From: an uncultured bacterium | Lineage (GTDB): Bacteria > Patescibacteriota > Minisyncoccia > UBA6257 > GWB1-50-10 | DNA: 64,000 nucleotides | Assembly: GCA_963768835.1 (NCBI GenBank) | Contig: CAVYJB010000002.1 | Coordinates: 72,230-136,229, forward strand | Reading direction: 5' to 3' | Part shown: piece by piece, positions 6,180 through 20,577 of the stretch | Position numbering within the stretch: the first letter of the stretch is position 1 | Layout: every line of letters starts with the position of its first letter | The notes under the pieces: generated by a model | What the model was told of the DNA's origin: nothing | Database searches by the model: none | What the model saw: the letters and a program-made list of their open reading frames with translations, nothing else | Position numbers and translations under genes: made by a program

Positions 6180-6580
6180 AGTGCTATAATGAATTCATGA
6201 CGAGGCTCCGTGCGCATTCTCCTCTCCGTTTCCTCTTCGCCTTCGTCCCCCTCGCATCTTTTGCTCTCACCGCACACGCACAAGGTGGAGTCGGTGGAGG
6301 AGGTGGGGCCGGGCTCCAACCCTTCACAGGATCCCCGACAAGCCTCACCGGAATCCTTACGAACATCGCGAATATACTCGCGTATCAGATTGCCCCGGTC
6401 ATCGGCGGCATCATGATCCTCATTGGAGCCTTCCAAATGCTCTTTTCCGCCGGGGACCCCGACAAGTTCCAGACCGGAAAGAAAACTATCTTGTACACGG
6501 TCATTGGGTATGCTATAATCTTTTTAAGCTCCGTAATCATATCGGTCGTCCAGAATCTCCTGACAGGGACGGCAACCTAG
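6176..6580 (+). CDS. TrbC/VirB2-like pilin (T4SS-type pilin)
   Basis: 134 aa. A signal-peptide-like N-terminus and a Gly-rich linker precede two hydrophobic helices separated by a short charged loop (GDPDKFQTGKK). The GTG start overlaps the solute-binding-protein stop, and an alternative ATG lies at 6197. Confidence 0.55.
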   Translation: MKCYNEFMTRLRAHSPLRFLFAFVPLASFALTAHAQGGVGGGGGAGLQPFTGSPTSLTGILTNIANILAYQIAPVIGGIMILIGAFQMLFSAGDPDKFQTGKKTILYTVIGYAIIFLSSVIISVVQNLLTGTAT

Positions 6581-6654
6581 CCTACGGAGAACACCGCGCA
6601 TCCATCCGTCAAAAGGAAAGGTCGAAACGTCAATAACGTAACGATATCTCTGTA

Positions 6655-6996
6655 ATGAAAAAACTAACTGTGGCAGGAGGAGCACTCCTATTGGCGTCTC
6701 TTCCTCTCATCTCTGCAGCACAGACGACATCCTTCGCAACCCCGACAATTTCGACCGTCGGAGGGTTCTTGGGTCTTCTGACCCAGATCTTTGGCTGGAT
6801 TCAGGTCGCATTCTGGATCTTGGCAGCCATCTTCATCCTTCTCACGGCGTTCAAGTACCTGACAGCGCAGGGCGATGAGTCGAAGATCGCAACCGCAAAG
6901 CAGATGCTTGTTTACACCATTATCGCCATCGCGATAGGGCTCTTTGCGACCATCGGTATCAGTCTCGTCCGCAGCTTCCTTTCGGGTGGAGCATAA
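6655..6996 (+). CDS. TrbC/VirB2-like pilin paralog
   Basis: 113 aa with the same architecture (signal peptide, two TM helices, charged loop QGDESKIATAKQ); tandem to the previous pilin gene. Confidence 0.55.
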   Translation: MKKLTVAGGALLLASLPLISAAQTTSFATPTISTVGGFLGLLTQIFGWIQVAFWILAAIFILLTAFKYLTAQGDESKIATAKQMLVYTIIAIAIGLFATIGISLVRSFLSGGA

Positions 6997-10951: not shown

Positions 10952-11814
10952 TACCTCCTTCCAATTGCGCTCGCAAGCTCTTTCGCGAACGCTGGTATGA
11001 ATTTAAGTAAGAACTCGATCGCCAAATCGACGATTCCAAACGCTTCCCAGTTGTCTTTGACCTTGTCCCACACAGACGACTGAGGAGTAGCTGTTGCGGT
11101 AGCCGTTGCTCCGGTACCCGCTCCAGGCGCCGCCGTTGGCGTAACCTGCGGACGGGTTCTCGGACGCTTGGCATAGAATTCTCCGAAACGTTGCGGTCTC
11201 TGCTTCCAGTGCCGCCACGCCAGCCGCCACGCTCCCTTGACCTCAGGCCAGAAATGCAGGCAAAAGATCAGAACTGAGAGAATGCAGGCGATCGGAACGC
11301 TGACAAATGCAGCGATCCACCAAAACCAGCTTCCTGTCTTTTCGCTCGTCGTTGGTACTGCCGGAGATTTGGGCGGTTCCGTCGGTGCCGTTTCTCTTCT
11401 CACCTCATACCTTTGCGCATGAGATTTGTAGGAGAGCACTGTCGGATTCTCTACCCAGCCCGGCTTCACAACTTCTTGCACGCCCTGTACGCCGAGTGGC
11501 ACTCCGGGTTCGCATAGGAATGCGGCCAGAAAGAGCACAAGGACTATCAGCCACAAAACAAGAGTCCATCCCCACCACGAGAGATTGCGTAGAAAACGAT
11601 ATGTTCTGTGAAACACCCCGTCGATGAACCCGGACGCTCCTTTGAGCACTCGAACGATTCTCCGACGTGGTGCCATTTGCCGCTGCTGTGCCGCCTGCAT
11701 GGGAGGTCGCTGACGATTGGACCACCGTTGCAGGAACCAGACGGTTCCCACAAAGAGTACGAGCGCGCAGGAAAGCGTGAGATCTATCCAGAACCAGGAA
11801 ATAGACATGACCAA
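10951..11814 (-). CDS. hypothetical polytopic membrane protein
   Basis: 287 aa with several Trp-rich TM helices; the stop overlaps the start of paralog A by 1 nt; no recognised domain. Confidence 0.45.
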   Translation of the reverse strand: MVMSISWFWIDLTLSCALVLFVGTVWFLQRWSNRQRPPMQAAQQRQMAPRRRIVRVLKGASGFIDGVFHRTYRFLRNLSWWGWTLVLWLIVLVLFLAAFLCEPGVPLGVQGVQEVVKPGWVENPTVLSYKSHAQRYEVRRETAPTEPPKSPAVPTTSEKTGSWFWWIAAFVSVPIACILSVLIFCLHFWPEVKGAWRLAWRHWKQRPQRFGEFYAKRPRTRPQVTPTAAPGAGTGATATATATPQSSVWDKVKDNWEAFGIVDLAIEFLLKFIPAFAKELASAIGRR

Positions 11815-11825
11815 CTCCTTTCTGT

Positions 11826-12461
11826 TTATTCCTTGGAATGACTGAAGCTTTCTGAGAAGAAGGCATCAGCAAACCCAGGAAGCATGATTGTGACTTCGCG
11901 TTCTTTGCCGGGGGTAAGCCTGATTTCATAGAGAGCTGACCCTTTCGAGTCCGTCTCCAGCGTCTTCTTGTGCTTTTTTCCTCCGGTGTCGATTATCTCT
12001 ACAACCATGGAAGCCGGCTTCTCGCTTCCAGGATCACCCTGGATACCATGAAAGGTTGAGATAGCGAGATAGACACGGTTCTTGACCCACGATGGTTTCA
12101 CCACGCACCCAGGAACGGGCTTCTGTTTCTTCTCTTCTGCTTCCTTGGGAAGCAGGAGGAGTGCACGCCCCCGTGTGTTTTCCCCGACAATCTGGGCATC
12201 TATAAACATTTCTCCGCCCTTCGGGAAAACCATCGCCGTCGATGCGCGTCCATTGTCATCTGTAAATACCGGAACACCAAAGATGGCGGTTCCGGCGTAG
12301 AATTGAATGGCGGCACCAGGAACGGCTTTGTTCCCTTTGGTCGCGATTGCTGTAGCGGTAACCTTCCATCCGGTTTCAGTTTTTTCCGCCGGCTGGAATT
12401 CCACCACGATTCGTGGCGGACCCGAGGATTGCTGCTGACCTTGACCTTGGCTCCTTGCCAT
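11826..12461 (-). CDS. hypothetical protein with two transthyretin/carboxypeptidase-regulatory-like beta-sandwich repeats
   Basis: 211 aa, first gene of the minus-strand operon; motifs 'FTDDNGRAST' and 'ETDSKGSALYEI' resemble CarboxypepD_reg-like domains; no signal peptide. Confidence 0.4.
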   Translation of the reverse strand: MARSQGQGQQQSSGPPRIVVEFQPAEKTETGWKVTATAIATKGNKAVPGAAIQFYAGTAIFGVPVFTDDNGRASTAMVFPKGGEMFIDAQIVGENTRGRALLLLPKEAEEKKQKPVPGCVVKPSWVKNRVYLAISTFHGIQGDPGSEKPASMVVEIIDTGGKKHKKTLETDSKGSALYEIRLTPGKEREVTIMLPGFADAFFSESFSHSKE

Positions 12462-12542
12462 AGCTTGTCTCCTTTCTAAGTAAGTAGTTGTTGTATTTGT
12501 GCTTTCAAACTTCTAATGCGATTATATCACTATAATACCGAT

Positions 12543-12571
12543 TTGTCAAACATAACCGGTGGTGGTATGAT
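12543..12571 (+). promoter_or_regulatory. candidate sigma70-type promoter for tRNA-Leu
   Basis: TTGTCA, a 17-nt spacer, then TATGAT, about 30 nt upstream of the tRNA 5' end. Confidence 0.3.
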
Positions 12572-14165
12572 AGAAAAACCCCAGATGGAATAAGGGGTTT
12601 GGGCAGGTGGCGGAACTGGCAGACGCATACGGTTTAGGGCCGTACGCCGAAAGGCATGTGGGTTCAAGTCCCACCCTGCCCACAAGAGTAGAGACTAAAT
12701 CAGTGTTAGAAAAATTCAGCCGCGCTTCGCGGAGCGAAGCGTAAGGTGGGGTGGGGGTAAATTCAATACGACGATTTTTAAGAAACGTGTTCGAGCCGGA
12801 AATTTTTTGGGCAAGAGATTTTTTGAGGGTAAGATCGGTCGAAACGGCAGTTTCGCCAATGTTTGCCGCATCATCTATCCAGCCACGTAGCGGTTCGAGC
12901 CACGCTAGATACCCTCGGTTCAGTCCGGCCATTTTCTCCTCCAGCGACCTTTTGTGCAGGAGAAGCTTCGCCTTCTCCGAGCGGTAGGTATTCCGCTCAA
13001 TATCTTCCTCAAGATAGGCGTCAAAAAGCCGCTGGAGTTTTTCGGTAACGGACGCTATCTCATTGCGGAGGACTTGGTTCTCGCGTATGGGAGATCGGGC
13101 GGCATCCTGCTCGTCCTTGTCCGCCAGCTTGTAGAGTTCGACCGCCCAATCCGAGGGCAACGCAAACTCTTTGAATATATTGGAAAGCTGATCCGATAAA
13201 ACTTCTTCTCTAATGTAGGGCTGAGAGCATATGACCCCTTTCTTACTGCAACGATAGTAAGTGCGACCTTTCTGAAATTCTGCGGTGATCATCCGTCCGC
13301 ACTCGCCGCAACGGAACAGCCCACACAACGGCTTCGGTTGTTTTGTTTTTACCTGCGGCTTGCTCCGCTCCTTCAAGACGGCTTGGACTTTATCGAATAA
13401 CTGCTTGGAAATTATCGGTTCGTGTTTACCTTCATACAACTCTCCGGCATAGCGGAACAGGCCGCAGTAAAAAGGATTTGATAGGAACACTGTAATCTGG
13501 TCGCGCTTCCACGCTCTGCCGCCCTCGCTCATCCATCGGTTGCTCGCTTTGGTTTTGACGCCCTTGTCGAAAAGAAATTTTGAAATATCTTCGAGACGAG
13601 ACTGGTTCTTGGAATACAATTCAAAGGCTTCGCGGACGACGATCGCTTCTTTCTCATCCACGACAATCTGTTTCCTCCGCACGTCATTTATGTAACCCAA
13701 CGGGGCAACGCTCGGATATTCGCCGCGCTTTGCTTTCTCGTGAAGGCCACGTTTCGTGTTCGCGGAAAGATCGCGGATATACTGGTTCGCCATCCCGAAC
13801 TCGACGCCAATCATAAGGACGTTATCGGAAGGATAGTAACTCCGGTCGCTCGTGAGAATGCGCTTTATGACATCCTGCTGAAGCAACCACTGGACGCGGG
13901 CGGCATCCATCGGGTTACGGGCGAGACGATCCAGTTTCCAGCACAAGATACCCTGCGCTTCTCCCCGCTCAATCTTATCCATCATCCCGTTAAAGACAGG
14001 ACGACCGGGCATCTTGGCGGACTGCTTCTCGATAAATTCTCCAATGATGTGGAGCTTCTCTTGCCTAGCCAAAGCACGCAGAACGGAAAGCTGGTCTTCG
14101 ATGGAACGAACTTGTTTGTCCTCGACATCGGTAGATTTTCTAGCGTAGAGGAAGTAGTTGGGCAT
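12546..14165 (-). CDS. large serine recombinase (resolvase catalytic domain, recombinase domain, zinc ribbon, coiled-coil)
   Basis: N-terminal 'YARKSTDVEDKQ...SIEDQ' resolvase motif with the catalytic Ser; 'CGLFRCGECGRMITAEFQKGRTYYRCS' zinc ribbon; the ORF as tracked reads through repeat X and antisense across the tRNA gene, so the true 3' end is uncertain. Confidence 0.8.
   Translation of the reverse strand: MPNYFLYARKSTDVEDKQVRSIEDQLSVLRALARQEKLHIIGEFIEKQSAKMPGRPVFNGMMDKIERGEAQGILCWKLDRLARNPMDAARVQWLLQQDVIKRILTSDRSYYPSDNVLMIGVEFGMANQYIRDLSANTKRGLHEKAKRGEYPSVAPLGYINDVRRKQIVVDEKEAIVVREAFELYSKNQSRLEDISKFLFDKGVKTKASNRWMSEGGRAWKRDQITVFLSNPFYCGLFRYAGELYEGKHEPIISKQLFDKVQAVLKERSKPQVKTKQPKPLCGLFRCGECGRMITAEFQKGRTYYRCSKKGVICSQPYIREEVLSDQLSNIFKEFALPSDWAVELYKLADKDEQDAARSPIRENQVLRNEIASVTEKLQRLFDAYLEEDIERNTYRSEKAKLLLHKRSLEEKMAGLNRGYLAWLEPLRGWIDDAANIGETAVSTDLTLKKSLAQKISGSNTFLKNRRIEFTPTPPYASLREARLNFSNTDLVSTLVGRVGLEPTCLSAYGPKPYASASSATCPNPLFHLGFFYHTTTGYV
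12573..12600 (-). terminator. intrinsic terminator on the minus strand (antisense to the tRNA leader)
   Basis: On the minus strand, an aaacccc/ggggttt hairpin is followed by TTTTTC. It would stop minus-strand read-through from the recombinase gene, yet it lies inside the recombinase ORF as tracked. Confidence 0.35.
12601..12682 (+). tRNA. tRNA-Leu (anticodon UAG), type II with long variable arm
   Basis: The sequence folds as a cloverleaf: acceptor GGGCAGG/CCTGCCC, anticodon stem TACGG/CCGTA with loop TTTAGGG (anticodon TAG), a long variable arm, T-arm GTGGG-TTCAAGT-CCCAC, and discriminator A; no CCA is encoded. Confidence 0.85.
12683..12837. repeat. inverted repeat X (~155 bp), partner at 15662-15815
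   Basis: Reverse complement of 15662-15815 with ~6 mismatches; encodes the C-terminal ~45 codons of the recombinase ORF. Confidence 0.8.
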
Positions 14166-14226
14166 GGGATATGTAACTTATAGTCTGTAGTCTTATTTTA
14201 TGCAACAACTAAAATAAAGTAAAGCA

Positions 14227-14433
14227 ATGGATAACATTCAGTTAAGAGTTGGCAAGAAAATTAAGGCGCTAAGAAGCGCAAAAGGCATCTCACAGGAAGC
14301 TCTAGCTTTTCGTTGCAAGCTACACAGGACTTATATAAGCGATATAGAACGAGGTCTACGCAACGTATCAATTAAGAATATTGAGAAAATAGCAAAGGCA
14401 TTACAGGTTCCCATAAACGAGCTACTCCCATAA
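14227..14433 (+). CDS. XRE-family helix-turn-helix transcriptional regulator (controller-protein-like)
   Basis: 68 aa; 'LRSAKGISQEALAFRCKLHRTYISDIERGLRNVS' is a canonical HTH_3 sequence; AT-rich gene. Confidence 0.75.
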   Translation: MDNIQLRVGKKIKALRSAKGISQEALAFRCKLHRTYISDIERGLRNVSIKNIEKIAKALQVPINELLP

Positions 14434-14435
14434 AT

Positions 14436-14810
14436 ATGGCTAAGATAAAAAAGACGAAAATAGAGACACCTGAAAAACACTTCGCCTCTGACGACAAAAA
14501 TATTTGCGTATATGAAATTTATCGTCGTTCGAAAAAGACGGTTTATTATCTACGAGGAACTCAAGCAAAACATCTTAGCAAGATAATCTTAAATGGTTTT
14601 GAGGGTATCCCTTCAGGACTCTATTTGAATAGAAATGGCTTTGGATTTGGTAAAAAAGGAGTCTTCCTCCTCTCTGCTCTGAAGGATCATCTGGCCGCCG
14701 GAAAGCTTCTAGAATTTATAATCTCAAATAAGAATAATAAGAAAGTCCAAAAAGGATCACTCAAGGTTTCAATCACCATTCCGTCTCAAGATGTTAAAAT
14801 TTACTCATAA
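14436..14810 (+). CDS. hypothetical protein
   Basis: 124-aa ORF starting 3 nt after the HTH gene stop; AT-rich; no recognised domain. Confidence 0.35.
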   Translation: MAKIKKTKIETPEKHFASDDKNICVYEIYRRSKKTVYYLRGTQAKHLSKIILNGFEGIPSGLYLNRNGFGFGKKGVFLLSALKDHLAAGKLLEFIISNKNNKKVQKGSLKVSITIPSQDVKIYS

Positions 14811-14950
14811 GACTCGGTCGCATAAACGAAGATAACAATAACGAACTGCGGACTACAGTTGGTTCATTTCTCAGCACGAAGTTTCCAAAGCACGTAAAGG
14901 TATCTACAGAAGATTTTGATGATTATAAAGGAGGAGAAGTTGCCGCGCTC

Positions 14951-15661
14951 TTGCGTAGAAAAAAGGTCGCCCAGAAGTTAAACGAAGAAGACTTCGAGTC
15001 TCTTAAGGGCTTTTTCCCTAAAATATTTGAGACCTCCTTAAAGGGTAAAAAAGGTGCTGTAAAAGCCGGACGCAACGCACTTATCAGAGATACTAAGAAA
15101 GTTACAGATCGAATTTTCCTAGATGAGGTGATTAAGGAGTTTGAAACTAACCTCTTAAAGAAAACTCTTTCAGAAGAAGACTGGCAGAAATTCCTCCATG
15201 ATAAAGTATTTAGATTCCTAGCTAACTACGTTACGTCTATCGAGAAACAAAATGTCAGTATTAGTGTGAGTTATCCAGATTTTGTTCTTGTAGATGTATA
15301 TGACTTTGTTGATGTTTTTGAAATAAAGAAACATGACGTTCAGTTATTAACTCTCGATGAGAGCCACGATAACTATTATTGGAAACCTGATGTTGCTAAA
15401 GCCATTGCACAAATTGAAAATTATATTGATGAAATCACCCGCAACGCCGATGATTATATTAAAGCTATCAAGCGTAAAAAGGGCATCGACATAAGAGTTG
15501 TGCGCCCCAGAGGATATATTATTGCTGGTACAAGTAAACAATTTAAGAATAAGAAAGAATCAGCAGATTTCAGAAAACTAGGAACCTCTTTGAAAAATAT
15601 CAGCTTTATTCTTTATGATGAATTGTTGGCAAACCTAAAGAATCTACGATCAAAACTCTAA
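14951..15661 (+). CDS. Shedu-like (DUF4263) PD-(D/E)xK nuclease-family protein
   Basis: 236 aa; the 'PDFVLVDVYDFVDVFEIKKHD', 'IAQIENYIDEI', 'VRPRGYIIAGT' and C-terminal 'ISFILYDELL' blocks match the conserved DUF4263 core of Shedu SduA proteins; the stop abuts repeat X'. Confidence 0.55.
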   Translation: MRRKKVAQKLNEEDFESLKGFFPKIFETSLKGKKGAVKAGRNALIRDTKKVTDRIFLDEVIKEFETNLLKKTLSEEDWQKFLHDKVFRFLANYVTSIEKQNVSISVSYPDFVLVDVYDFVDVFEIKKHDVQLLTLDESHDNYYWKPDVAKAIAQIENYIDEITRNADDYIKAIKRKKGIDIRVVRPRGYIIAGTSKQFKNKKESADFRKLGTSLKNISFILYDELLANLKNLRSKL

Positions 15662-15815
15662 TGATCTTACCCTCAAAAAATCCGTTGCCCAAAAAATTTC
15701 CGGCTCGAACGCAGTTCTCAAAAATCGTCGTATTGAATTTACCCCCACCCCACCTTACGCTTCGCTCCGCGAAGCGCGGCTGAATTTTTCTAACACTGAT
15801 TTAGTCTCTACTCTT
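15662..15815. repeat. inverted repeat X' (partner of 12683-12837)
   Basis: Reverse complement of repeat X; together with repeat Y it forms a ~430-bp block whose minus-strand reading equals Y'-CCACAA-X. Confidence 0.8.
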
Positions 15816-16104
15816 GTGGCGTTATACCGATCCGCTCGAGGGTTCTTCGAGGGTCAGACCTAACCATTTTACCCCTACATTCCGAGACTGTTTACCCCTT
15901 CATTTACCCCTTCACTCGCCCTGCGTCCATTTGAAGGGGTAGCAAGTCCAGTTTGCCCTGCAAACGCTGATCTTTTTGACCCTCGTCCGGCAAAATCACA
16001 AGTCCTACTTCACTCCGCTGAGCTCCCCCCAAAGATGTTTGCTCAGCCCCTCAGCCTGCTGGCTTCGGGGCTTCGCGTATGGCGCGCCCAAATTCCTCCC
16101 CCAC
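15816..16104. repeat. inverted repeat Y (~290 bp), partner at 18868-19158
   Basis: Near-perfect reverse complement of 18868-19158; contains three tandem AGGGGTAAA-like 9-mers (read on the minus strand). Confidence 0.8.
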
Positions 16105-16146
16105 AAAAATTTTATATAACGCTCGCGGCCGCGTGGCCGAGAGCGG

Positions 16147-16590
16147 TCAAATAGAAACTGTTTTGATTTTTCTAAGCTGATCAATATATTCCTTCGATAA
16201 GCCGCACTCTTCCGCACCCTCCAAAATCATATCCATATATTTTCGACTAGGAGGGGCAAGTTCTCTGCCAGTTGCGTAATACACAATAGCTTTAATAGAT
16301 TTATCTCCTTCTATGAAAACATCTATCTCTTTACGATTGTATGATTTTGGAAAACCTTCATAACAATCCAGAGCAGCACGATTTGCTTCCGAAATTTCGA
16401 ACAGTCCTCCGCTAACTACAGCACCGGAGAACTCAACAACATTTGCACCAGCTCCTCCCCAAGATTTTGAGTGTCCATCAAAAATCAGTTTATAGTCCCG
16501 AAGATCAGCCTTATATAAGAAGGTATTCCCCGGACATCGCTCATTCATCTGTTTATGGCTCATATTTGAACCATAGGCAAAATACTTCAT
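16147..16590 (-). CDS. gamma-glutamylcyclotransferase-like (AIG2/GGCT family) protein
   Basis: 147 aa; N-terminal 'YFAYGSNMSHKQMNERCP' is the AIG2/GGCT signature; lies 13 nt downstream of the GmrSD-like gene on the same strand. Confidence 0.65.
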   Translation of the reverse strand: MKYFAYGSNMSHKQMNERCPGNTFLYKADLRDYKLIFDGHSKSWGGAGANVVEFSGAVVSGGLFEISEANRAALDCYEGFPKSYNRKEIDVFIEGDKSIKAIVYYATGRELAPPSRKYMDMILEGAEECGLSKEYIDQLRKIKTVSI

Positions 16591-16603
16591 TCTCGATGAT
16601 TAC

Positions 16604-18355
16604 TTAAAAATGCCAAACCTTGTAATAGGCGTTGTGAGCTAACTTACCGGCTCTCATGGCTATCTCATCAGCTCCCCATCCCTTTGTCTTAATATGACTT
16701 TCAAACTCTTCGATGAAAGTCTTCACATGGGGCAAATTAGCAAAACTTTCCTTATTTTTCAGTATCTCTATTTTTTCGAGTGGCATTTTATCTTGGAGCT
16801 TTGAATTGGTGTGTAAGCTAATGATTAGCAAGTTCCCAATGTTATCAGCTATATCAGGATCAGACAGCTCTGCTCTTTTAGAGTTCGGATAAAAATGCTC
16901 AACGTTGAAGCTCCGCCTAAATCCTTTCCTGTCCAAGAAAAACAACTGAGTCTTTTGTCCGCCGACTCTATCAAAATTATTTATGCGATCAATGACATAA
17001 CTGATTAATGGAAGATCGGCCGAGGTAGCATATGAAAGATCCTTAAATTTAGACTCAAACTCTTCGTAACTCGCTTTCTTATCTTCAAGGGTCTTGATAA
17101 GTTCGCTGCAATTCTTTTTGAAATCCTTTACCTTATTAAATCTCGGAGCAAAATCCATATACGTCTTCTCGATCTCGTTACCTACGCGCTCACAGATAAC
17201 ATTGTTAACAAAATGGTATTTCTCAAAAGTTTCGATCAGAGATCTAAGTAGCTTCGCCATCTCGGCGTTGTCTCCATATTTTTCCTGATATGCTTTTACG
17301 GCTGAATAGATAATCGGGTAGGGTTGCGTAACGCGGAAGAGCCTTAGAGCTTCAATGCTCAAATAAATATCATGGCAATAATGTTGATTCCTAGATATTG
17401 CCAAACATCCGTTGGCTTCAAAGTAACTTCTGAGATCTTCTTCTCTTCCCTGCCGCAAGATCGCATAAAAAGTGGAAAAGTCGCTGAGGTCTTTTACAAA
17501 AATCTCGGGCTTGAGTTCTGATGATTGCTTCTGAAGATTTTTGAATATATCTCTTTTTTGTACAGCTCCCTTTCTGGCGACCAGATAATATTTCAACATC
17601 CTCATCATCGTCGTATCTGCATTTTCCACTATTTCATCCCATGTTTCCTCCATGCCTTCGATTTCAGCTGAGAAAAGATCCGCCTTTAAGAGATCGGCCG
17701 CATTAAGTTCTAAGCCACGCGCATTTGCCCTTTCAAAAAGATCGAATACATCCAGTTCGCCATCAACCTCTATCTTAATGACGAATGAGCTATAAAGTTT
17801 CCTCAATAAGGTTGATATATCTTCAAGTTTTTTAAGTGATGATATCCGCTCGCGGAATAATTCGTATACGGGCTTAATCTTGTTAACTTGTCGCTTAACA
17901 GACCTCTTTCCTAGCTTCGCAGGAAAATCTCCCTTCCAATCATCCCTTACGATATATTCAAAAATATCACGTACCGCTATTGATGCACCTAATCTTGCAC
18001 CTGTCATCTCACCAGTAGTGGAATCGCTGAAAGTTAATTTTTCTGTAATCTTGCTGGCAAGCTTATTCTCTTTTATAGCGATTGCTCTAGCCCGACACGC
18101 AATGAGCAATAGACAGATCGTCGTTATTCTCTGCTGGCCATCGACGATAGATATTTCGCCACGCCCCATGTTCTTAACGTCGAGAACAATATTGCCGAGG
18201 TATATTCCCTGATCGGACGAGATAACATCATTCCATAGGTCATCTGCTTCGTCTTTACCCCAATCAAAACCGCGTTGGTACGAAGGAACCATAAAACGAG
18301 CGTTGCCTATATTTAGGAGTTGCTCAATGGTTTGCCGTGATGGAGTTATGGCCAT
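16604..18355 (-). CDS. DUF262/DUF1524 (GmrSD-family) putative modification-dependent nuclease
   Basis: 583 aa; N-terminal 'IVDGQQRITT' (DUF262, ParB-like NTPase motif) and C-terminal 'NVEHFYP...IGNLLIISLHTN' (DUF1524 His-Me finger). Confidence 0.75.
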   Translation of the reverse strand: MAITPSRQTIEQLLNIGNARFMVPSYQRGFDWGKDEADDLWNDVISSDQGIYLGNIVLDVKNMGRGEISIVDGQQRITTICLLLIACRARAIAIKENKLASKITEKLTFSDSTTGEMTGARLGASIAVRDIFEYIVRDDWKGDFPAKLGKRSVKRQVNKIKPVYELFRERISSLKKLEDISTLLRKLYSSFVIKIEVDGELDVFDLFERANARGLELNAADLLKADLFSAEIEGMEETWDEIVENADTTMMRMLKYYLVARKGAVQKRDIFKNLQKQSSELKPEIFVKDLSDFSTFYAILRQGREEDLRSYFEANGCLAISRNQHYCHDIYLSIEALRLFRVTQPYPIIYSAVKAYQEKYGDNAEMAKLLRSLIETFEKYHFVNNVICERVGNEIEKTYMDFAPRFNKVKDFKKNCSELIKTLEDKKASYEEFESKFKDLSYATSADLPLISYVIDRINNFDRVGGQKTQLFFLDRKGFRRSFNVEHFYPNSKRAELSDPDIADNIGNLLIISLHTNSKLQDKMPLEKIEILKNKESFANLPHVKTFIEEFESHIKTKGWGADEIAMRAGKLAHNAYYKVWHF

Positions 18356-18586
18356 AATTACCTTCCATGTTATCAGAAAAAGGGCTTTTTGGTAAACCAG
18401 ATTTCAAGGTACCTAAATAGCCTCTCGCTCACGCATGGGGGTAAGAGCAAGAACCTTTAACCACGCAAAACTTCACAAAGAATGTCCCCTTGTGGTAGTA
18501 CGGAGGTAGCCTCAAGATGAGACTAGAACCGATACTATACGTGCCGCTGCGGAGTCGACGGCGGTGATAAATCAATTGAAGATACA

Positions 18587-18817
18587 ATGGAAGACAAATT
18601 AGTAAAAAGGCGTACCGAGCTTTTAGATCAAATAGAATTGTTGGCCAGAGAGCGTGGCATTGTCGCCATAAGAGATACGGCACTTCTCAACGCTAAGAAC
18701 TACGCACGAGAGCAGTTAGAACACGGCTTTGATAAAGGGCTTACCCAAGATGAACTTGAGATTGAAGGACTTGAAAGACACCTTCGCTCCATGAGGAATC
18801 AGGGTAGACAACAATAG
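18587..18817 (+). CDS. small hypothetical protein
   Basis: 76-aa charged ORF upstream (divergent) of the GmrSD-like gene; no recognised domain. Confidence 0.2.
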   Translation: MEDKLVKRRTELLDQIELLARERGIVAIRDTALLNAKNYAREQLEHGFDKGLTQDELEIEGLERHLRSMRNQGRQQ

Positions 18818-18867
18818 AGCCAAAAGACGTGGAGTTGCCACCTCTCCGGCGCGCCAAAAGGAGGGGT

Positions 18868-19158
18868 TGGGGGAGGAATTTGGGCGCGCCATACGCGAAG
18901 CCCCGAAGCCAGCAGGCTGAGGGGCTGAGCAAACATCTTTGGGGGGAGCTGAGCGGAGTGAAGTAGGACTTGTGATTTTGCCGGACGAGGGTCAAAAAGA
19001 TCAGCGTTTGCAGGGCAAACTGGACTTGCTACCCCTTCAAATGGACGCAGGGCGAGTGAAGGGGTAAATGAAGGGGTAAACAGTCTCGGAATGTAGGGGT
19101 AAAATGGTTAGGTCTGACCCTCGAAGAACCCTCGAGCGGATCGGTATAACGCCACAAC
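18868..19158. repeat. inverted repeat Y' (partner of 15816-16104)
   Basis: Reverse complement of repeat Y; it ends at ...ataacgCCACAA, after which flanking chromosomal sequence begins. Confidence 0.8.
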
Positions 19159-19166
19159 TTCGGTCA

Positions 19167-19211
19167 AAAGAAACCCGCCTTCGGCATGCCGAGAGGCGGG
19201 TTGGGTTTATT
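19167..19211 (-). terminator. intrinsic terminator (bidirectional-looking) at the right edge of the island
   Basis: aaacccgcc / ggcgggttt hairpin with U-runs on both strands, immediately downstream of the 19240-19762 gene on the minus strand. Confidence 0.5.
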
Positions 19212-19239
19212 GGTCGCAAGAACGATTTTGGGGGGACGC

Positions 19240-19762
19240 TTAATGCATCACTTTCCGGAGAAACGCCGGCTCTTCCTTAGGACCGGTGTCCTGAGGAGGG
19301 GTTACAAGTCTCACGGCCTGCAGCCTCAGCGGCGCCTCTTCCTCATCCGCTCCGGCATCGGAAGACGCCGTGAGCGCCCCGTCCATAATGAGGAGGGATT
19401 CCGCACATCGCCATCCTGCGTCCGCTTCTCTGTCGAGGAGGACGCCGCGCTGATGCTCCGGAAGGAGGTCCGCCTTGTCCCACTCAAGTGAGTTTTCGGG
19501 AATGCGGACGACGGGCGTCCACGATTTGGGATCTACGCCGTACCGCAGGAAGAATATCGCGTCGAAACATCGAAAAAGCTCGGCGGGGATAATCTGCCGC
19601 GTATAAACGGTGAAGTGTCCGTCCGGATCCATTTCCATGCGCCATGGAAGTTCTTCGAAGCTTTCTTTGTCGGCCGGTTCTTGGGCTTTCGTGAGATGTC
19701 GGAAGAGCATTAGAACGTCCTCTAGGATCCATCCTTTCCACGCTCCGTTCCACTTCTTCATG
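19240..19762 (-). CDS. hypothetical protein
   Basis: ORF 19240-19839; the likely start is MKKWNGAWKG at 19762; no recognised domain. Confidence 0.4.
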
Positions 19763-19857
19763 TGGGTTCCCCTTCTATGGTGATTTTTTTCGTTCGGTGT
19801 GCTACCGCCAGTGTAACCCGCCGCAGGCGTCATGCGCAAACCGCTCGCCCGGAAAAA

Positions 19858-20577
19858 TCAGGAGGAGGGGACGTCGGGGTCCCGATACCGCCCCCGGAGA
19901 AACCGCAGGAGGACCATGAGCGTCGAGAGCCCGTAGGTGACGCTTCGGGAAAGATTGACCGACGAGACGCCGTCGCGGTAGAAGCACTCCGCCGGAACCT
20001 CCGTGACGCCGTAACCGTTCGCCATCAGCCACGCGATGACCTCGCTGTCGAACACGAAATCGTCCGAGAACGACCGGTAGGGCATCCGCGCGAATAGACG
20101 GGCGTCGTAGACGCGGAGCCCGGAGTGGAACTCCGAGAGGGACGACCGGAACGCGCGGTTCTGGAGGGCGGTCAGCAGCCGGTTCCCGGCGTACTTCCAG
20201 ACGGGCATGTCGTTGCGCAGCGCGGTCCCCATGCGGGTGCCGAGCACAAGGGCGGCGCCGCCCTGCACCGCCCGGATCATCTCCGGCAGGCAACGGGTAT
20301 CGTACTGATTGTCGGGATGCACCATCACGATGACGTCGGGATTCTTCTTGCGCGCGGCGTCGTAGAGCGTCTTCTGGTTGGCGCCGTAGCCTGCGTTCTC
20401 CCGATGGCGGATGGTGGTGATACCAAGGCTCCGGCTCACCTCGTGCGTGCGGTCCTCGCTCCCGTCGTCGCAGAGAATGACCTCGTCGTAGACGGGGGGC
20501 AGCGCGCGGTGCGTGGCCGCGAGCGTGCGTTCGGCCCGGTAGGCGGGCATCACGATGATCACTTTCGTCATGGGCAT
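19858..20577 (-). CDS. family 2 glycosyltransferase (polyprenol-phosphate sugar transferase-like)
   Basis: 'KVIIVMPAYRAERTL...ILCDDGSEDRT' is a GT2 DXD-type signature; the likely start is MPMTKV, since the ORF prefix overlaps the upstream gene. Confidence 0.7.
   Translation of the reverse strand: MPMTKVIIVMPAYRAERTLAATHRALPPVYDEVILCDDGSEDRTHEVSRSLGITTIRHRENAGYGANQKTLYDAARKKNPDVIVMVHPDNQYDTRCLPEMIRAVQGGAALVLGTRMGTALRNDMPVWKYAGNRLLTALQNRAFRSSLSEFHSGLRVYDARLFARMPYRSFSDDFVFDSEVIAWLMANGYGVTEVPAECFYRDGVSSVNLSRSVTYGLSTLMVLLRFLRGRYRDPDVPSS

What the first reader, a model, noticed from the sequence alone, without database searches (positions are those of the whole stretch)
16147..18355. GmrSD-like DUF262/DUF1524 nuclease co-transcribed with a GGCT/AIG2-family protein
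A 583-aa protein carries the DGQQR (DUF262) motif and a DUF1524 His-Me finger, as in type IV restriction and BrxU-type defence nucleases. A gamma-glutamylcyclotransferase-like gene (YFAYGSNM motif) follows it 13 nt downstream on the same strand. The pair is bounded by the perfect inverted repeats Y and Y'. I do not recognise a GGCT-like partner for GmrSD-family nucleases; it may be an accessory or effector module.
Basis: partly seen in the sequence, partly recalled or inferred. Interest (0 to 1): 0.55.

Follow-up and report, generated by a model that had tools for sequence, protein, structure and literature searches.

The report
Restriction nuclease with swappable GGCT enzyme
A known type of phage-DNA-cutting nuclease sits in a small mobile island next to a γ-glutamyl cyclotransferase gene that is not its dedicated partner but belongs to a group of such enzymes repeatedly found inside bacterial restriction and defence operons, which no paper or defence-gene library I could search describes.

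Summary
ORF 16604-18355(-) is a GmrSD-type nuclease: DUF262 with DGQQR at residues 72-76, and DUF1524 with EHFYP at 486. It matches PADLOC HEC-06 over its full length. ORF 16147-16590(-), 13 nt downstream, is a catalytically intact γ-glutamyl cyclotransferase (TM 0.93-0.94 to human GGCT). Perfect 290-nt inverted repeats flank the pair.

The pair is cargo of a ~6.5-kb island that a large serine recombinase inserted into tRNA-Leu. The "repeats" are duplicated flanks of the attachment site.

GGCT is not a GmrSD-specific partner:
- A sister island with a 93-98% identical GmrSD carries two unrelated genes in the GGCT slot.
- Five more distant GmrSD relatives lack GGCT.
- GGCT is far more diverged than GmrSD within the same cassettes.
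- HEC-06 defends alone (published).

The GGCT does belong to a clade found again and again at the 3' end of, or inside, restriction and defence operons (type IIG, type III, Hma, SNF2-PLD). One member is fused to an OLD/AriA-type ATPase. Across 144 loci, 16 of 22 members of the two defence-linked clades have such neighbours, against 5 of 122 elsewhere (p≈2e-12).

Its role in defence is inferred, not shown. I found no prior description.

The parts
12601..12683 (+). tRNA-Leu (anticodon tag), the integration target of the island
   Evidence: ARAGORN; Rfam tRNA 51 bits, E 6.9e-09.
12680..12685 (.). attL core CCACAA, at the junction of the tRNA 3' end and the island
   Evidence: The same 6 nt occur at 19152-19157 as a direct repeat and, inverted, at 15814-15819. 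Junction sequences were read.
12680..12836 (.). 'a' arm: island-side flank of the attachment site. It also encodes the C-terminal ~52 residues of the recombinase.
   Evidence: Inverted repeat I2 with 15663-15819, 157 nt, 96%; translations.
12546..14165 (-). Large serine recombinase, 539 aa. Its ORF crosses the att core and ends antisense to the tRNA.
   Evidence: Pfam Resolvase 3.9e-21, Recombinase 3.3e-17, Zn_ribbon_recom 6.6e-10.
14227..14433 (+). HTH protein, 68 aa, resembling the control (C) proteins of restriction systems
   Evidence: Pfam HTH_3 1.7e-17; PADLOC Control_protein 1.6e-27.
14436..14810 (+). 124-aa protein with no family match, lying between the HTH gene and the Shedu-like gene
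   Evidence: No Pfam or PADLOC hit.
14951..15661 (+). Short Shedu-like nuclease, 236 aa, SduA C-terminal domain only. This is the second defence cargo of the island.
   Evidence: Pfam SduA_C 2.2e-26; PADLOC SduA 1.2e-25.
15663..16103 (.). Internal, inverted, intact copy of the attachment-site region: a' arm 15663-15819, core 15814-15819, b arm 15814-16103
   Evidence: Repeats I1 and I2 abut with a 6-nt overlap. The reverse complement reads b-CCACAA-a without a break.
16147..16590 (-). γ-glutamyl cyclotransferase (GGCT/C7orf24 type), 147 aa, with an intact active site
   Evidence: Pfam. Family profile against human GGCT, E 3.5e-27. AF2 pLDDT 94.8. Foldseek TM 0.93-0.94 to 2i5t, 3cry and 2rbh. 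Y6-G7-S8-N9, E78, Y84, Y104 and Y118 are conserved.
16604..18355 (-). GmrSD-like type IV restriction nuclease, HEC-06 type, 583 aa
   Evidence: Pfam GmrSD_N and GmrSD_C. PADLOC HEC-06 7e-57, full length. DGQQR at 72 and EHFYP at 486.
18587..18817 (+). 76-aa ORF, divergent from GmrSD, with no family match. It is conserved in related cassettes.
   Evidence: A 76-77-aa gene is called at the same place in L172 and L177. No Pfam or PADLOC hit.
18868..19157 (.). b' arm, ending in the attR core CCACAA at 19152-19157
   Evidence: Repeat I1, 290 nt, 100%.
19171..19212 (+). G+C-rich hairpin followed by a T run, just outside attR. This is probably the original terminator of tRNA-Leu, so attB = tRNA 3' end + CCACAA + this sequence.
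   Evidence: Sequence read. The reconstruction is an inference.

Best explanation
The two genes are cargo of a ~6.5-kb integrative island (window 12680-19157). A large serine recombinase inserted it into the 3' end of tRNA-Leu.

The 583-aa protein is a HEC-06-type GmrSD-like type IV restriction enzyme. It has an NTP-hydrolysing DUF262 domain and a His-Me-finger DUF1524 nuclease, and it should restrict phage DNA on its own.

The 147-aa protein is a catalytically intact γ-glutamyl cyclotransferase of the GGCT/C7orf24 type. Its expected reaction is γ-Glu-X -> 5-oxoproline + X. It is probably transcribed with the nuclease.

GGCT is not a subunit of the nuclease. It occupies an exchangeable slot at the 3' end of the cassette. 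It belongs to a clade of GGCT genes that has been recruited again and again to the 3' end or the interior of DNA-restriction operons: type IIG, type III, Hma/DUF499 and SNF2-PLD systems. In one case it is fused to an OLD/AriA-type ATPase.

The most likely role is a self-contained accessory enzyme of the defence cargo. It would remove a γ-glutamyl group from a small molecule or peptide that matters during infection. One candidate substrate is a product of the amidoligase modules that phages carry next to their own GGCT genes.

Shown here: domains, fold, active-site conservation, island anatomy, the neighbourhood census, and slot exchange.
Inferred: co-transcription, enzymatic activity, any contribution to defence, and the substrate.
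For: GmrSD identity:
- Domains, motifs and the full-length HEC-06 match.
- HEC-06 defends as a single gene, and defence is lost in DGQQR and EH mutants (paper 10.1101/2024.01.29.577857).

GGCT identity and activity:
- Sequence and structure matches to human GGCT.
- Catalytic residues are invariant in all 21 defence-linked members.
- The gene is under purifying selection, dN/dS 0.10-0.16.

Island anatomy:
- tRNA-Leu target, recombinase domains, 6-nt core at attL, attR and the internal copy.
- Cargo G+C is 35-45% against 50-69% in the flanks.
- The same architecture occurs at tRNA-Asn in L176, and a decayed version in L001.

GGCT is not GmrSD-specific:
- L176 carries other genes in the slot. Homology to the window breaks 18 nt into the GGCT ORF and resumes at the repeat.
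- Five other GmrSD relatives lack GGCT.
- Divergence is discordant between the two genes.

Recurrent defence contexts of GGCT:
- Type IIG: L008, L101 and L012.
- Type III mod-GGCT-res: L062.
- A 986-aa methyltransferase: L022.
- ResIII helicase: L019.
- HmaB-GGCT-HmaC in about 9 loci.
- An island with a DUF262-Schlafen gene, a type I S subunit and PDDEXK_3: L093.
- 16 of 22 members of the two clades are defence-linked against 5 of 122 elsewhere, Fisher p=1.8e-12. Clade support is 75-78 of 100 NJ bootstraps.

Other support:
- A full GGCT is fused to an OLD/AriA/GajA-type ATPase, in an operon with a T5orf172 nuclease.
- In IMG/VR viral contigs, 34 of 80 GGCT loci have an Amidoligase_2 gene within 6 kb and essentially none has a restriction gene.
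Against: - No experiment links any GGCT to phage defence.
- PADLOC has no model that matches the protein.
- The family is large, with 8,130 cluster representatives at E<=1e-10. Most clades sit in ordinary contexts: gatA-GGCT-gatB, oxoprolinase, UvrA, and amidoligase with pilin genes.
- Six of the 22 members of the two 'defence' clades have no recognised defence neighbour.
- The tree is a neighbour-joining tree of a 147-residue protein, with only moderate support.
- Phages and plasmids also carry GGCT. The association could therefore reflect shared residence in mobile cargo regions rather than function.
- A constitutive 147-aa enzyme has no obvious sensor or regulator.
- No substrate is known. 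Many hosts, including archaea and CPR bacteria, may lack glutathione (my own knowledge).
Confidence: 0.55

Rival explanations
1. GGCT is a passenger. It is a small metabolic gene common on mobile elements that happens to ride in cargo slots of defence islands and operons, and contributes nothing to defence.
For: - The family is broad, with many non-defence contexts.
- It occurs on phages and plasmids.
- It has no PADLOC match.
- The slot is freely exchanged.
- The adjacent GmrSD type works alone.
Against: - It is repeatedly placed inside operons with overlaps or gaps of 1-13 nt: between type III mod and res, between HmaB and HmaC, and after type IIG genes.
- It is retained in Hma operons across deep divergence, with GGCT identities of 53-70% among clade members.
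- It is under purifying selection with an intact active site.
- It is fused to a defence-type ATPase.
- Defence contexts are concentrated in two clades.
Confidence: 0.27
2. GmrSD and GGCT form an obligate two-gene system, in which GGCT is an effector or activator needed by the nuclease.
For: - The genes share a strand with a 13-nt gap that is conserved in three cassette variants.
- The pair lies within one repeat-bounded segment.
- The closest metagenomic GGCT relative (59% identity, L093) also lies near a DUF262 protein.
Against: - L176 has a 93-98% identical GmrSD without GGCT.
- None of five further GmrSD relatives has GGCT.
- The two genes have discordant divergence.
- The same GGCT clade pairs with unrelated enzymes.
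- HEC-06 is active alone.
Confidence: 0.08
3. The inverted repeats mark an invertible, phase-variable switch or a transposon that controls or moves the GmrSD-GGCT pair. On this view they are not att-site duplications.
For: - The arms are 100% identical in the two genomes with an intact recombinase (290 nt in the window, 266 nt in L176). They are 85-89% identical where the recombinase is truncated (L001).
- Arms within a genome are more alike than arms between genomes, which suggests ongoing exchange.
Against: - The outer arm ends exactly at the attR core and the inner arm at an intact inverted att core. The repeats are therefore copies of the att flank.
- There is no transposase in the segment.
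- All three genomes show the same relative orientation of the two segments, so no inversion polymorphism was seen.
- Typical invertons have far shorter repeats (my own knowledge).
Confidence: 0.15

Closest known systems
HEC-06, a GmrSD-like single-gene phage defence (Payne et al., bioRxiv 10.1101/2024.01.29.577857); wider family GmrSD, BrxU, SspE
   Same: - The DUF262-linker-DUF1524 architecture and a length of about 580 aa.
- The DGQQR and EH(x)xP motifs.
- Full-length match to the HEC-06 models, 7e-57.
   Different: - Here the gene is not embedded in an Hma system. It lies in a recombinase island.
- It is followed by a GGCT gene, which that paper and its supplements do not mention.
- Target modification and activity were not tested.
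Human γ-glutamyl cyclotransferase GGCT/C7orf24 (PDB 2i5t, 2pn7, 2rbh, 3cry); B. subtilis YkqA
   Same: - Fold: TM 0.93-0.94, rmsd 1.2-1.5 Å, 33-34% identity.
- The YGSN loop, the catalytic Glu (human E98 = E78 here) and the active-site tyrosines.
   Different: - It is a 147-aa minimal form.
- It has cysteines characteristic of its clade: C19, which is widespread in the family, and C129, which is largely confined to this clade.
- It sits on a prokaryotic mobile element. Substrate and physiological role are unknown.
Phage and prophage amidoligase-GGCT(-GATase II) modules (Iyer et al. 2009, Mol Biosyst, known to me and cited in PMC11318856; examples)
   Same: The same enzyme family on mobile elements in conflict settings. 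In IMG/VR viral contigs, 34 of 80 GGCT loci have an Amidoligase_2 gene nearby.
   Different: - The window's GGCT has no amidoligase or amidotransferase partner.
- It sits in a restriction cassette.
- Viral homologues are at most 42% identical and fall outside its clade.
Genes embedded in multi-gene defence systems (Hma, BREX, type I RM; Payne et al. 2024)
   Same: Relatives of this GGCT lie between HmaB and HmaC, and between type III mod and res, in the same orientation as those genes. This is the pattern used to nominate HEC-01 to HEC-09.
   Different: - GGCT is not among the reported candidates.
- It is an amide-bond cyclotransferase, not a nuclease, ATPase or RNase.
Large-serine-recombinase integrative islands that target tRNA genes
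   Same: - The Resolvase, Recombinase and Zn-ribbon domains.
- Insertion at a tRNA 3' end with a short core repeat.
- Low-G+C cargo of defence genes.
   Different: - The integrated island holds an extra, inverted, intact copy of the att region. This splits it into two segments, each bounded by inverted repeats.
- The same layout recurs in L176 and L001.
- I know of no described element with this layout. That is a statement from memory, not from a search.

Membership tests
GmrSD-like type IV restriction enzymes (DUF262 + DUF1524) | N-terminal DUF262/ParB-like domain with the DGQQR nucleotide-hydrolysis motif | tested here: met
   Pfam GmrSD_N 1.2e-32, residues 10-228; DGQQR at 72-76.
GmrSD-like type IV restriction enzymes (DUF262 + DUF1524) | C-terminal DUF1524 His-Me finger with an acidic residue followed by His, (D/E)H | tested here: met
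   Pfam GmrSD_C 1.4e-09, residues 429-573. EHFYP at 486, compared with EHICP in HEC-06 and DHIYP in BrxU.
GmrSD-like type IV restriction enzymes (DUF262 + DUF1524) | Both domains in one polypeptide, and a full-length match to a validated subfamily | tested here: met
   PADLOC HEC-06 PDLC04154, 7e-57, residues 3-582 on profile positions 7-565 of 569.
GmrSD-like type IV restriction enzymes (DUF262 + DUF1524) | Cleavage of modified DNA and protection against phage | not testable with these tools
   Needs plaque assays and nuclease assays.
γ-glutamyl cyclotransferase, GGCT/C7orf24 subfamily | GGCT fold | tested here: met
   AF2 pLDDT 94.8, pTM 0.89. Foldseek TM 0.93-0.94 to human GGCT structures.
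γ-glutamyl cyclotransferase, GGCT/C7orf24 subfamily | YGSN(L/M) substrate-binding loop and catalytic glutamate | tested here: met
   Y6-G7-S8-N9-M10. E78 aligns with human E98 in LDxxEG. Both are conserved in the family.
γ-glutamyl cyclotransferase, GGCT/C7orf24 subfamily | Conversion of γ-glutamyl compounds to 5-oxoproline | not testable with these tools
   Needs an enzyme assay.
   - TM to GGACT (3juc, 3jub) is 0.58-0.59.
- TM to ChaC2 and yeast ChaC is 0.5-0.67.
- TM to GGCT is 0.93-0.94.
- Profile E-values: 3.5e-27 to GGCT against about 1e-3 to AIG2-like proteins.
Obligate two-gene GmrSD+GGCT system | The partner gene is kept wherever close relatives of the nuclease occur | tested here: not met
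   L176/L177 have a GmrSD 93-98% identical but no GGCT. L173, L174, L182, L183 and L184 also lack it.
Obligate two-gene GmrSD+GGCT system | The two genes diverge together | tested here: not met
   For the window against L178: GmrSD is 98.1% identical at the amino-acid level with dS 0.41; GGCT is 70.7% identical with dS 1.33.
Hma-embedded defence candidates | The gene lies between the Hma helicase, methylase and ATPase genes | tested here: not met
   There are no Hma genes in the island. GGCT relatives in other genomes are embedded between HmaB and HmaC.
Large-serine-recombinase integrative element | Recombinase with Resolvase, Recombinase and Zn-ribbon domains, plus a short core repeated at both ends next to a target gene | tested here: met
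   CCACAA at 12680-12685 and 19152-19157. The junctions recombine on paper into an attB of tRNA plus terminator.
Large-serine-recombinase integrative element | Excision and integration activity; existence of the empty site | not tested

The most novel reading that the evidence does not exclude
γ-glutamyl cyclotransferases of this clade are a new class of portable defence module, or of module that counters phage counter-defence. They would be embedded in, or appended to, restriction systems (type IIG, III, IV, Hma) and sometimes fused to OLD/AriA-type ATPases. They would act on a γ-glutamyl conjugate that is made or needed during infection, for example the product of phage amidoligase modules. 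This would add amide-bond cyclotransferase chemistry to the known repertoire of anti-phage immunity.
Probability: 0.3. Interest if true: 0.75.

Novelty: new variant of a known kind. Interest (0 to 1): 0.55.

Why it matters
The nuclease itself is an ordinary member of a validated family. The value lies in the neighbour.

A canonical small-molecule enzyme, GGCT, turns out to be a recurrent, exchangeable and unusually diverged passenger of many unrelated DNA-restriction operons, and it is sometimes fused to a defence ATPase. If it contributes to immunity, this would reveal:
- a new enzymatic activity in phage defence;
- a possible host answer to the widespread but unexplained amidoligase-GGCT modules of phages;
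- a testable candidate for defence-prediction tools, which currently have no model for it.

The island is a compact example of modular defence-cargo exchange on a recombinase element with an unusual double-inverted att architecture.

Tried and rejected
- **Rfam** on 11500-20000 found only the tRNA, so the repeats are not a known RNA.
- **The promoter and terminator scan** was no better than shuffled sequence.
- **The first locus scan**, with alignment A1, failed because two gene calls were truncated at the N-terminus. It was redone with A2.
- **Literature searches** for AIG2 or GGCT together with GmrSD, DUF262, defence or restriction found nothing relevant. The one hit, the Pyrococcus island PYG1, has GGCT in an amidotransferase/ADP-ribosylglycohydrolase module, not next to its McrBC genes.
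- **Iyer et al. 2009** could not be opened.
- **A first bootstrap script** timed out. It was rewritten with a faster routine.
- **PADLOC and Pfam** gave nothing for the 282-aa and 74-aa genes that replace GGCT in L176, for the 1157-aa GGCT neighbour in L005, or for the 419-aa neighbour in L098.

Ideas considered and dropped:
- **Assembly artefact for the inverted repeats.** Rejected because the same layout occurs in L176 and, with diverged arms, in L001-L004.
- **Transposon terminal repeats.** Rejected because the arm ends coincide with the att cores and no transposase is present.
- **GGCT acting on SAM or SAH**, suggested by its frequent position after DNA methyltransferases. Rejected because the active site is canonical for γ-glutamyl substrates and the ring geometry does not fit (reasoning only).
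- **GGCT stripping folyl-polyglutamate or peptidoglycan γ-Glu.** Rejected because these lack the free α-amine the reaction needs (reasoning only).
Full report
**1.

ORF 16604-18355(-) encodes 583 aa and ORF 16147-16590(-) encodes 147 aa. They are 13 nt apart on the same strand.

The larger protein matches Pfam GmrSD_N (1.2e-32) and GmrSD_C (1.4e-09). DGQQR is at residues 72-76 and the His-Me motif NVEHFYP at 484-490. It matches the PADLOC HEC-06 models end to end, at 7e-57.

The smaller protein matches AIG2_2 and GGACT and begins MKYFAYGSNM.

A 290-nt, 100% complementary inverted repeat (15814-16103 and 18868-19157) brackets the pair together with a 76-aa ORF.

Co-transcription is an inference. 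It rests on the 13-nt gap and the lack of a terminator-like site between the genes. A weak promoter-like match just upstream of GGCT cannot be excluded.

**2. What the two proteins are.**

HEC-06 is a GmrSD-like protein that protects against phage as a single gene. Protection is lost when the DGQQR motif or the EH nuclease motif is mutated (Payne et al., bioRxiv 10.1101/2024.01.29.577857, read). The window's protein has both motifs.

The 147-aa protein is a true GGCT rather than a GGACT/AIG2 or ChaC enzyme:
- A profile of its relatives hits human GGCT at 3.5e-27 over the full length.
- The AlphaFold model has pLDDT 94.8.
- The model superposes on human GGCT structures with TM 0.93-0.94 at 33-34% identity. 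The values are 0.58-0.59 for GGACT and 0.5-0.67 for ChaC.
- The YGSN loop, the catalytic glutamate (E78, aligned to human E98) and three active-site tyrosines are conserved. They are invariant in every defence-linked relative.
- Pairwise dN/dS of 0.10-0.16 shows the gene is maintained by selection.

**3. The setting is a small integrative defence island.**

G+C falls from 50-69% in the flanks to 35-45% between about 14.2 and 18.5 kb. tRNA-Leu lies at 12601-12683.

A 539-aa large serine recombinase with Resolvase, Recombinase and Zn-ribbon domains runs on the minus strand from 14165. It ends antisense to the tRNA.

Reading the junctions gives three sites:
- attL = tRNA 3' end-CCACAA-'a' arm (12680-12836).
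- attR = 'b' arm (18868-19157)-CCACAA-host.
- In the middle (15663-16103), an intact but inverted b-CCACAA-a copy.

Joining the outer flanks on paper gives tRNA-Leu followed by a G+C-rich hairpin and a T run, which is a plausible original terminator. That reconstruction is inferred.

The "perfect inverted repeats Y/Y'" are therefore two copies of the b flank of the attachment site. A second pair, 157 nt and 96% identical, is the a flank. The a flank also encodes the recombinase C-terminus. The tail after the core differs between the integrated and the circular configuration.

The island thus has two segments:
- One holds the recombinase, a C-protein-like HTH, a 124-aa unknown and a short Shedu nuclease.
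- The other holds GGCT, GmrSD and the 76-aa ORF.

**4. The island type recurs with different cargo.**

| Locus | Source | Target | b arms | a arms | Recombinase | Other cargo | Slot after GmrSD |
|---|---|---|---|---|---|---|---|
| Window | this window | tRNA-Leu | 290 nt, 100% | 157 nt, 96% | 539 aa | Shedu-like | GGCT |
| L176 | 829-kb ENA/NCBI contig | tRNA-Asn | 266 nt, 100% | 141 nt, 93% | 526 aa | PDC-M34A/B | 74-aa + 282-aa genes, no family match |
| L001-L004 | four NCBI MAG contigs | next to tRNA-Gln | 85-89% | one copy only | 294 aa, truncated | 645-aa unknown; MvaI-type RM beyond the repeat | GGCT |

Sources.

All three genomes show the same relative orientation of the two segments. 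I therefore saw no evidence of inversion.

A 2,801-bp Logan contig equals the unique segment between the b arms. This is what an assembler produces when a real repeat breaks the graph.

**5. GGCT is not a GmrSD-specific partner.**

Homology between the window and L176 runs through GmrSD, the 13-nt spacer and the first 18 nt of the GGCT ORF. It then stops and resumes at the b arm.

GmrSD relatives at 64%, 48% and about 42-43% identity, in five further contexts, have no GGCT anywhere in the fetched DNA.

Among the cassettes that do share the pair:

| Gene | Amino-acid identity | dN/dS |
|---|---|---|
| GmrSD | 92-98% | 0.02 |
| GGCT | 67-71% | 0.10-0.16 |

For the window-L178 pair, dS is 0.41 for GmrSD and 1.33 for GGCT. 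The two genes therefore have different histories, and the slot has been refilled or recombined.

The same pattern appears in an unrelated setting. In three Hma loci the C-terminus of the methylase is 83-88% identical, while the adjacent GGCT is only 63-70% identical.

**6. The GGCT belongs to a defence-associated clade.**

I fetched GGCT loci without any defence criterion:
- 80 from species-representative genomes.
- 80 from metagenomes.
- 11 from protein look-ups.

Together with the window's own copy these gave 144 non-redundant sequences.

Neighbours were annotated with Pfam and PADLOC and by tblastn with annotated seeds.

The window's protein falls in a clade of 14. Nine have restriction or defence genes beside them, or within about 2.5 kb on the same strand:
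- GmrSD (window, L001).
- MmeI/Eco57I-like type IIG enzymes, with gaps of 1 and 13 nt (L008, L101).
- An SNF2-PLD helicase, a IIG methylase and Mrr_N (L012).
- A 986-aa N6/N4 methylase (L022).
- A ResIII helicase (L019).
- An island with a DUF262-Schlafen protein, PDDEXK_3 and a type I S subunit (L093).
- A 1157-aa unknown protein next to a ParB-methylase (L005).

A second clade of 8 is embedded between the Hma methylase and ATPase (7 of 8).

Elsewhere, GGCT lies between type III mod and res in an Altiarchaeota MAG (L062). It lies after an SF1 helicase-PLD gene in L163.

In total, 16 of 22 members of the two clades are defence-linked, against 5 of 122 outside them. Fisher p = 1.8e-12. The core sets stay together in 75-78 of 100 NJ bootstraps.

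Other clades look like housekeeping:
- gatA-GGCT-gatB, in 13 loci.
- Oxoprolinase.
- UvrA.
- Amidoligase_2 with thioester-pilin genes, in Lachnospiraceae.

**7. Domain fusions point the same way.**

Among the best 150 hits of the family profile in 1.84 billion proteins, several are fusions:
- One carries a complete GGCT fused to an OLD/AriA/GajA-type ABC ATPase (Walker A GENNAGKT; PADLOC Old 3.6e-23, AriA 8.1e-22). It sits in an operon with a second such ATPase and a T5orf172 nuclease.
- One is GGCT fused to DUF4145.
- One is a NADAR-like DUF6939 fused to GGCT.
- One is GGCT fused to Amidoligase_2.

**8. GGCT on the other side of the conflict.**

Phages carry GGCT homologues: 53 isolate genomes and at least 435 IMG/VR contigs. 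All are at most 42% identical to the window's protein.

In viral contigs, 34 of the 80 best loci have an Amidoligase_2 gene within 6 kb. Only one has anything resembling a restriction gene.

This matches the amidoligase-GGCT modules described for phages (Iyer et al. 2009, from my knowledge and as cited in PMC11318856).

A small Mesorhizobium plasmid has DNA methyltransferase-GGCT-ParA.

**9. How it most likely works.**

Shown: a stand-alone-type GmrSD nuclease and an intact GGCT share a cassette inside a recombinase island. The GGCT slot is exchangeable. The GGCT clade recurs in restriction operons.

Inferred:
- The nuclease restricts modified phage DNA on its own.
- GGCT converts a γ-glutamyl compound into 5-oxoproline plus the free amine or amino acid.
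- It acts in parallel with the nuclease, as a self-contained accessory.

One concrete possibility follows from the contrast in contexts. Phages pair an amidoligase with GGCT, while host defence operons carry GGCT alone. The host enzyme might therefore destroy or reverse a γ-glutamyl conjugate made by the phage. This is a hypothesis without direct support.

The main rival is that GGCT is a passenger of mobile cargo regions. I give the accessory-module reading 0.55, the passenger reading 0.27, and the obligate-partner reading 0.08.

**10. Comparison with what is known, and novelty.**

The nuclease is a new member of a known, validated family.

I did not find the GGCT association in any of these places:
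- PADLOC (no model hits it).
- The paper that defined embedded defence candidates, or its supplements.
- A 2026 survey of BREX- and DUF499-related systems.
- Full-text searches.

The held library is incomplete, so absence from it is not proof.

I rate the whole as a new variant of a known kind. It is a type IV restriction cassette with an unreported, portable enzymatic companion.

**Caveats.**
- The census covers about 170 loci out of a family of thousands.
- Neighbour calls rest on simple ORF finding.
- The tree is neighbour-joining on a short protein.
- The dS values are near saturation.

Noticed in passing
window 12680-19157 (arms 12680-12836, 15663-15819, 15814-16103, 18868-19157): Besides attL and attR, the integrated island contains an intact inverted copy of its own attachment region (b-CCACAA-a). 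This splits it into two segments, each bounded by inverted repeats, so a circular form would resemble a 2-micron-style molecule. The same layout is in L176 (tRNA-Asn) and L001. Its origin and purpose are unexplained.
   Followed up: partly
window 15814-16103 / 18868-19157; L176 7521-7786 / 10952-11217; L001 3712-3977 / 6438-6831: The b arms are 100% identical in the two genomes with a full-length recombinase (window, L176). They are only 85-89% identical in L001, where the recombinase is truncated to 294 aa. The a arms are 93-96% identical in both intact islands. This suggests recombinase-linked homogenisation, but collapse by the assembler is not excluded.
   Followed up: partly
window 12546-12836(-) and 15663-15860(+): The recombinase ORF crosses the att core. 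In the integrated state it ends 44 codons later, antisense to tRNA-Leu. In the attP configuration it would end 14 codons after the core (...STLVALYRSARGFFEGQT*). The protein's C-terminal tail therefore depends on the state of the element.
   Followed up: partly
window 14227-15661: A C-protein-like HTH (68 aa), a 124-aa protein with no match, and a short Shedu (236 aa, SduA C-terminal nuclease domain only, without the usual N-terminal sensor region) form a second cargo module. The same slot holds PDC-M34A/B in L176 and a 645-aa unknown in L001.
   Followed up: partly
window 18587-18817(+): A 76-aa ORF divergent from GmrSD has no family match. It is called at the same position in related cassettes (L172, L177). 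It may be a regulator.
   Followed up: no
window 15868-15916 and 19054-19103: Three copies of TTTACCCCT(T/A)CA(T/C)T, spaced 12 and 23 nt apart, lie inside each b arm next to a short local palindrome. They may be protein-binding sites.
   Followed up: no
L176 9785-10946; L177 2071-3152: In a sister island, a 74-aa gene and a 282-aa gene without Pfam or PADLOC matches replace GGCT downstream of a 93-98% identical GmrSD. The first 18 nt of the GGCT ORF remain as a remnant.
   Followed up: partly
L005 1947-6713 (also L006, L007): A GGCT 50% identical to the window's overlaps the stop codon of a 1157-aa protein that has no Pfam or PADLOC match. A 194-aa gene precedes it and an 86-aa gene follows, all next to a ParB-methyltransferase. 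This is a possible uncharacterised defence operon.
   Followed up: no
L186 1844-7145: Operon with an AAA_15/21 ATPase (568 aa), a 471-aa unknown, a GGCT fused to an OLD/AriA-type ATPase (the true start is ATG 4974, giving MKYFAYGSNM), and a T5orf172/MUG113 nuclease.
   Followed up: partly
L013, L014, L017, L018, L026, L054, L096, L097, L099, L100, L102-L104: In the MAGs (Nitrospira/Nitrospirota and Methylomirabilis/Methylomirabilota) and in several unassigned metagenome contigs, a GGCT 35-47% identical to the window's lies in the gatCAB region, in most of these loci between gatA and gatB. This link to Glu-tRNA(Gln) amidotransferase is conserved and unexplained.
   Followed up: no
L112, L115, L151 (Hma loci); window, L001, L178: In two unrelated operon types, GGCT is two to three times more diverged than the adjacent defence gene at both synonymous and non-synonymous sites, with similar dN/dS. 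This points to allele swapping or an older allele pool at the GGCT slot.
   Followed up: partly
L181 (Mesorhizobium jarvisii plasmid pMJ700743b) 4282-6271: On a 23.8-kb plasmid, an orphan DNA methyltransferase is followed by GGCT and then ParA. GGCT is also followed by a ParA-like gene in L012.
   Followed up: no
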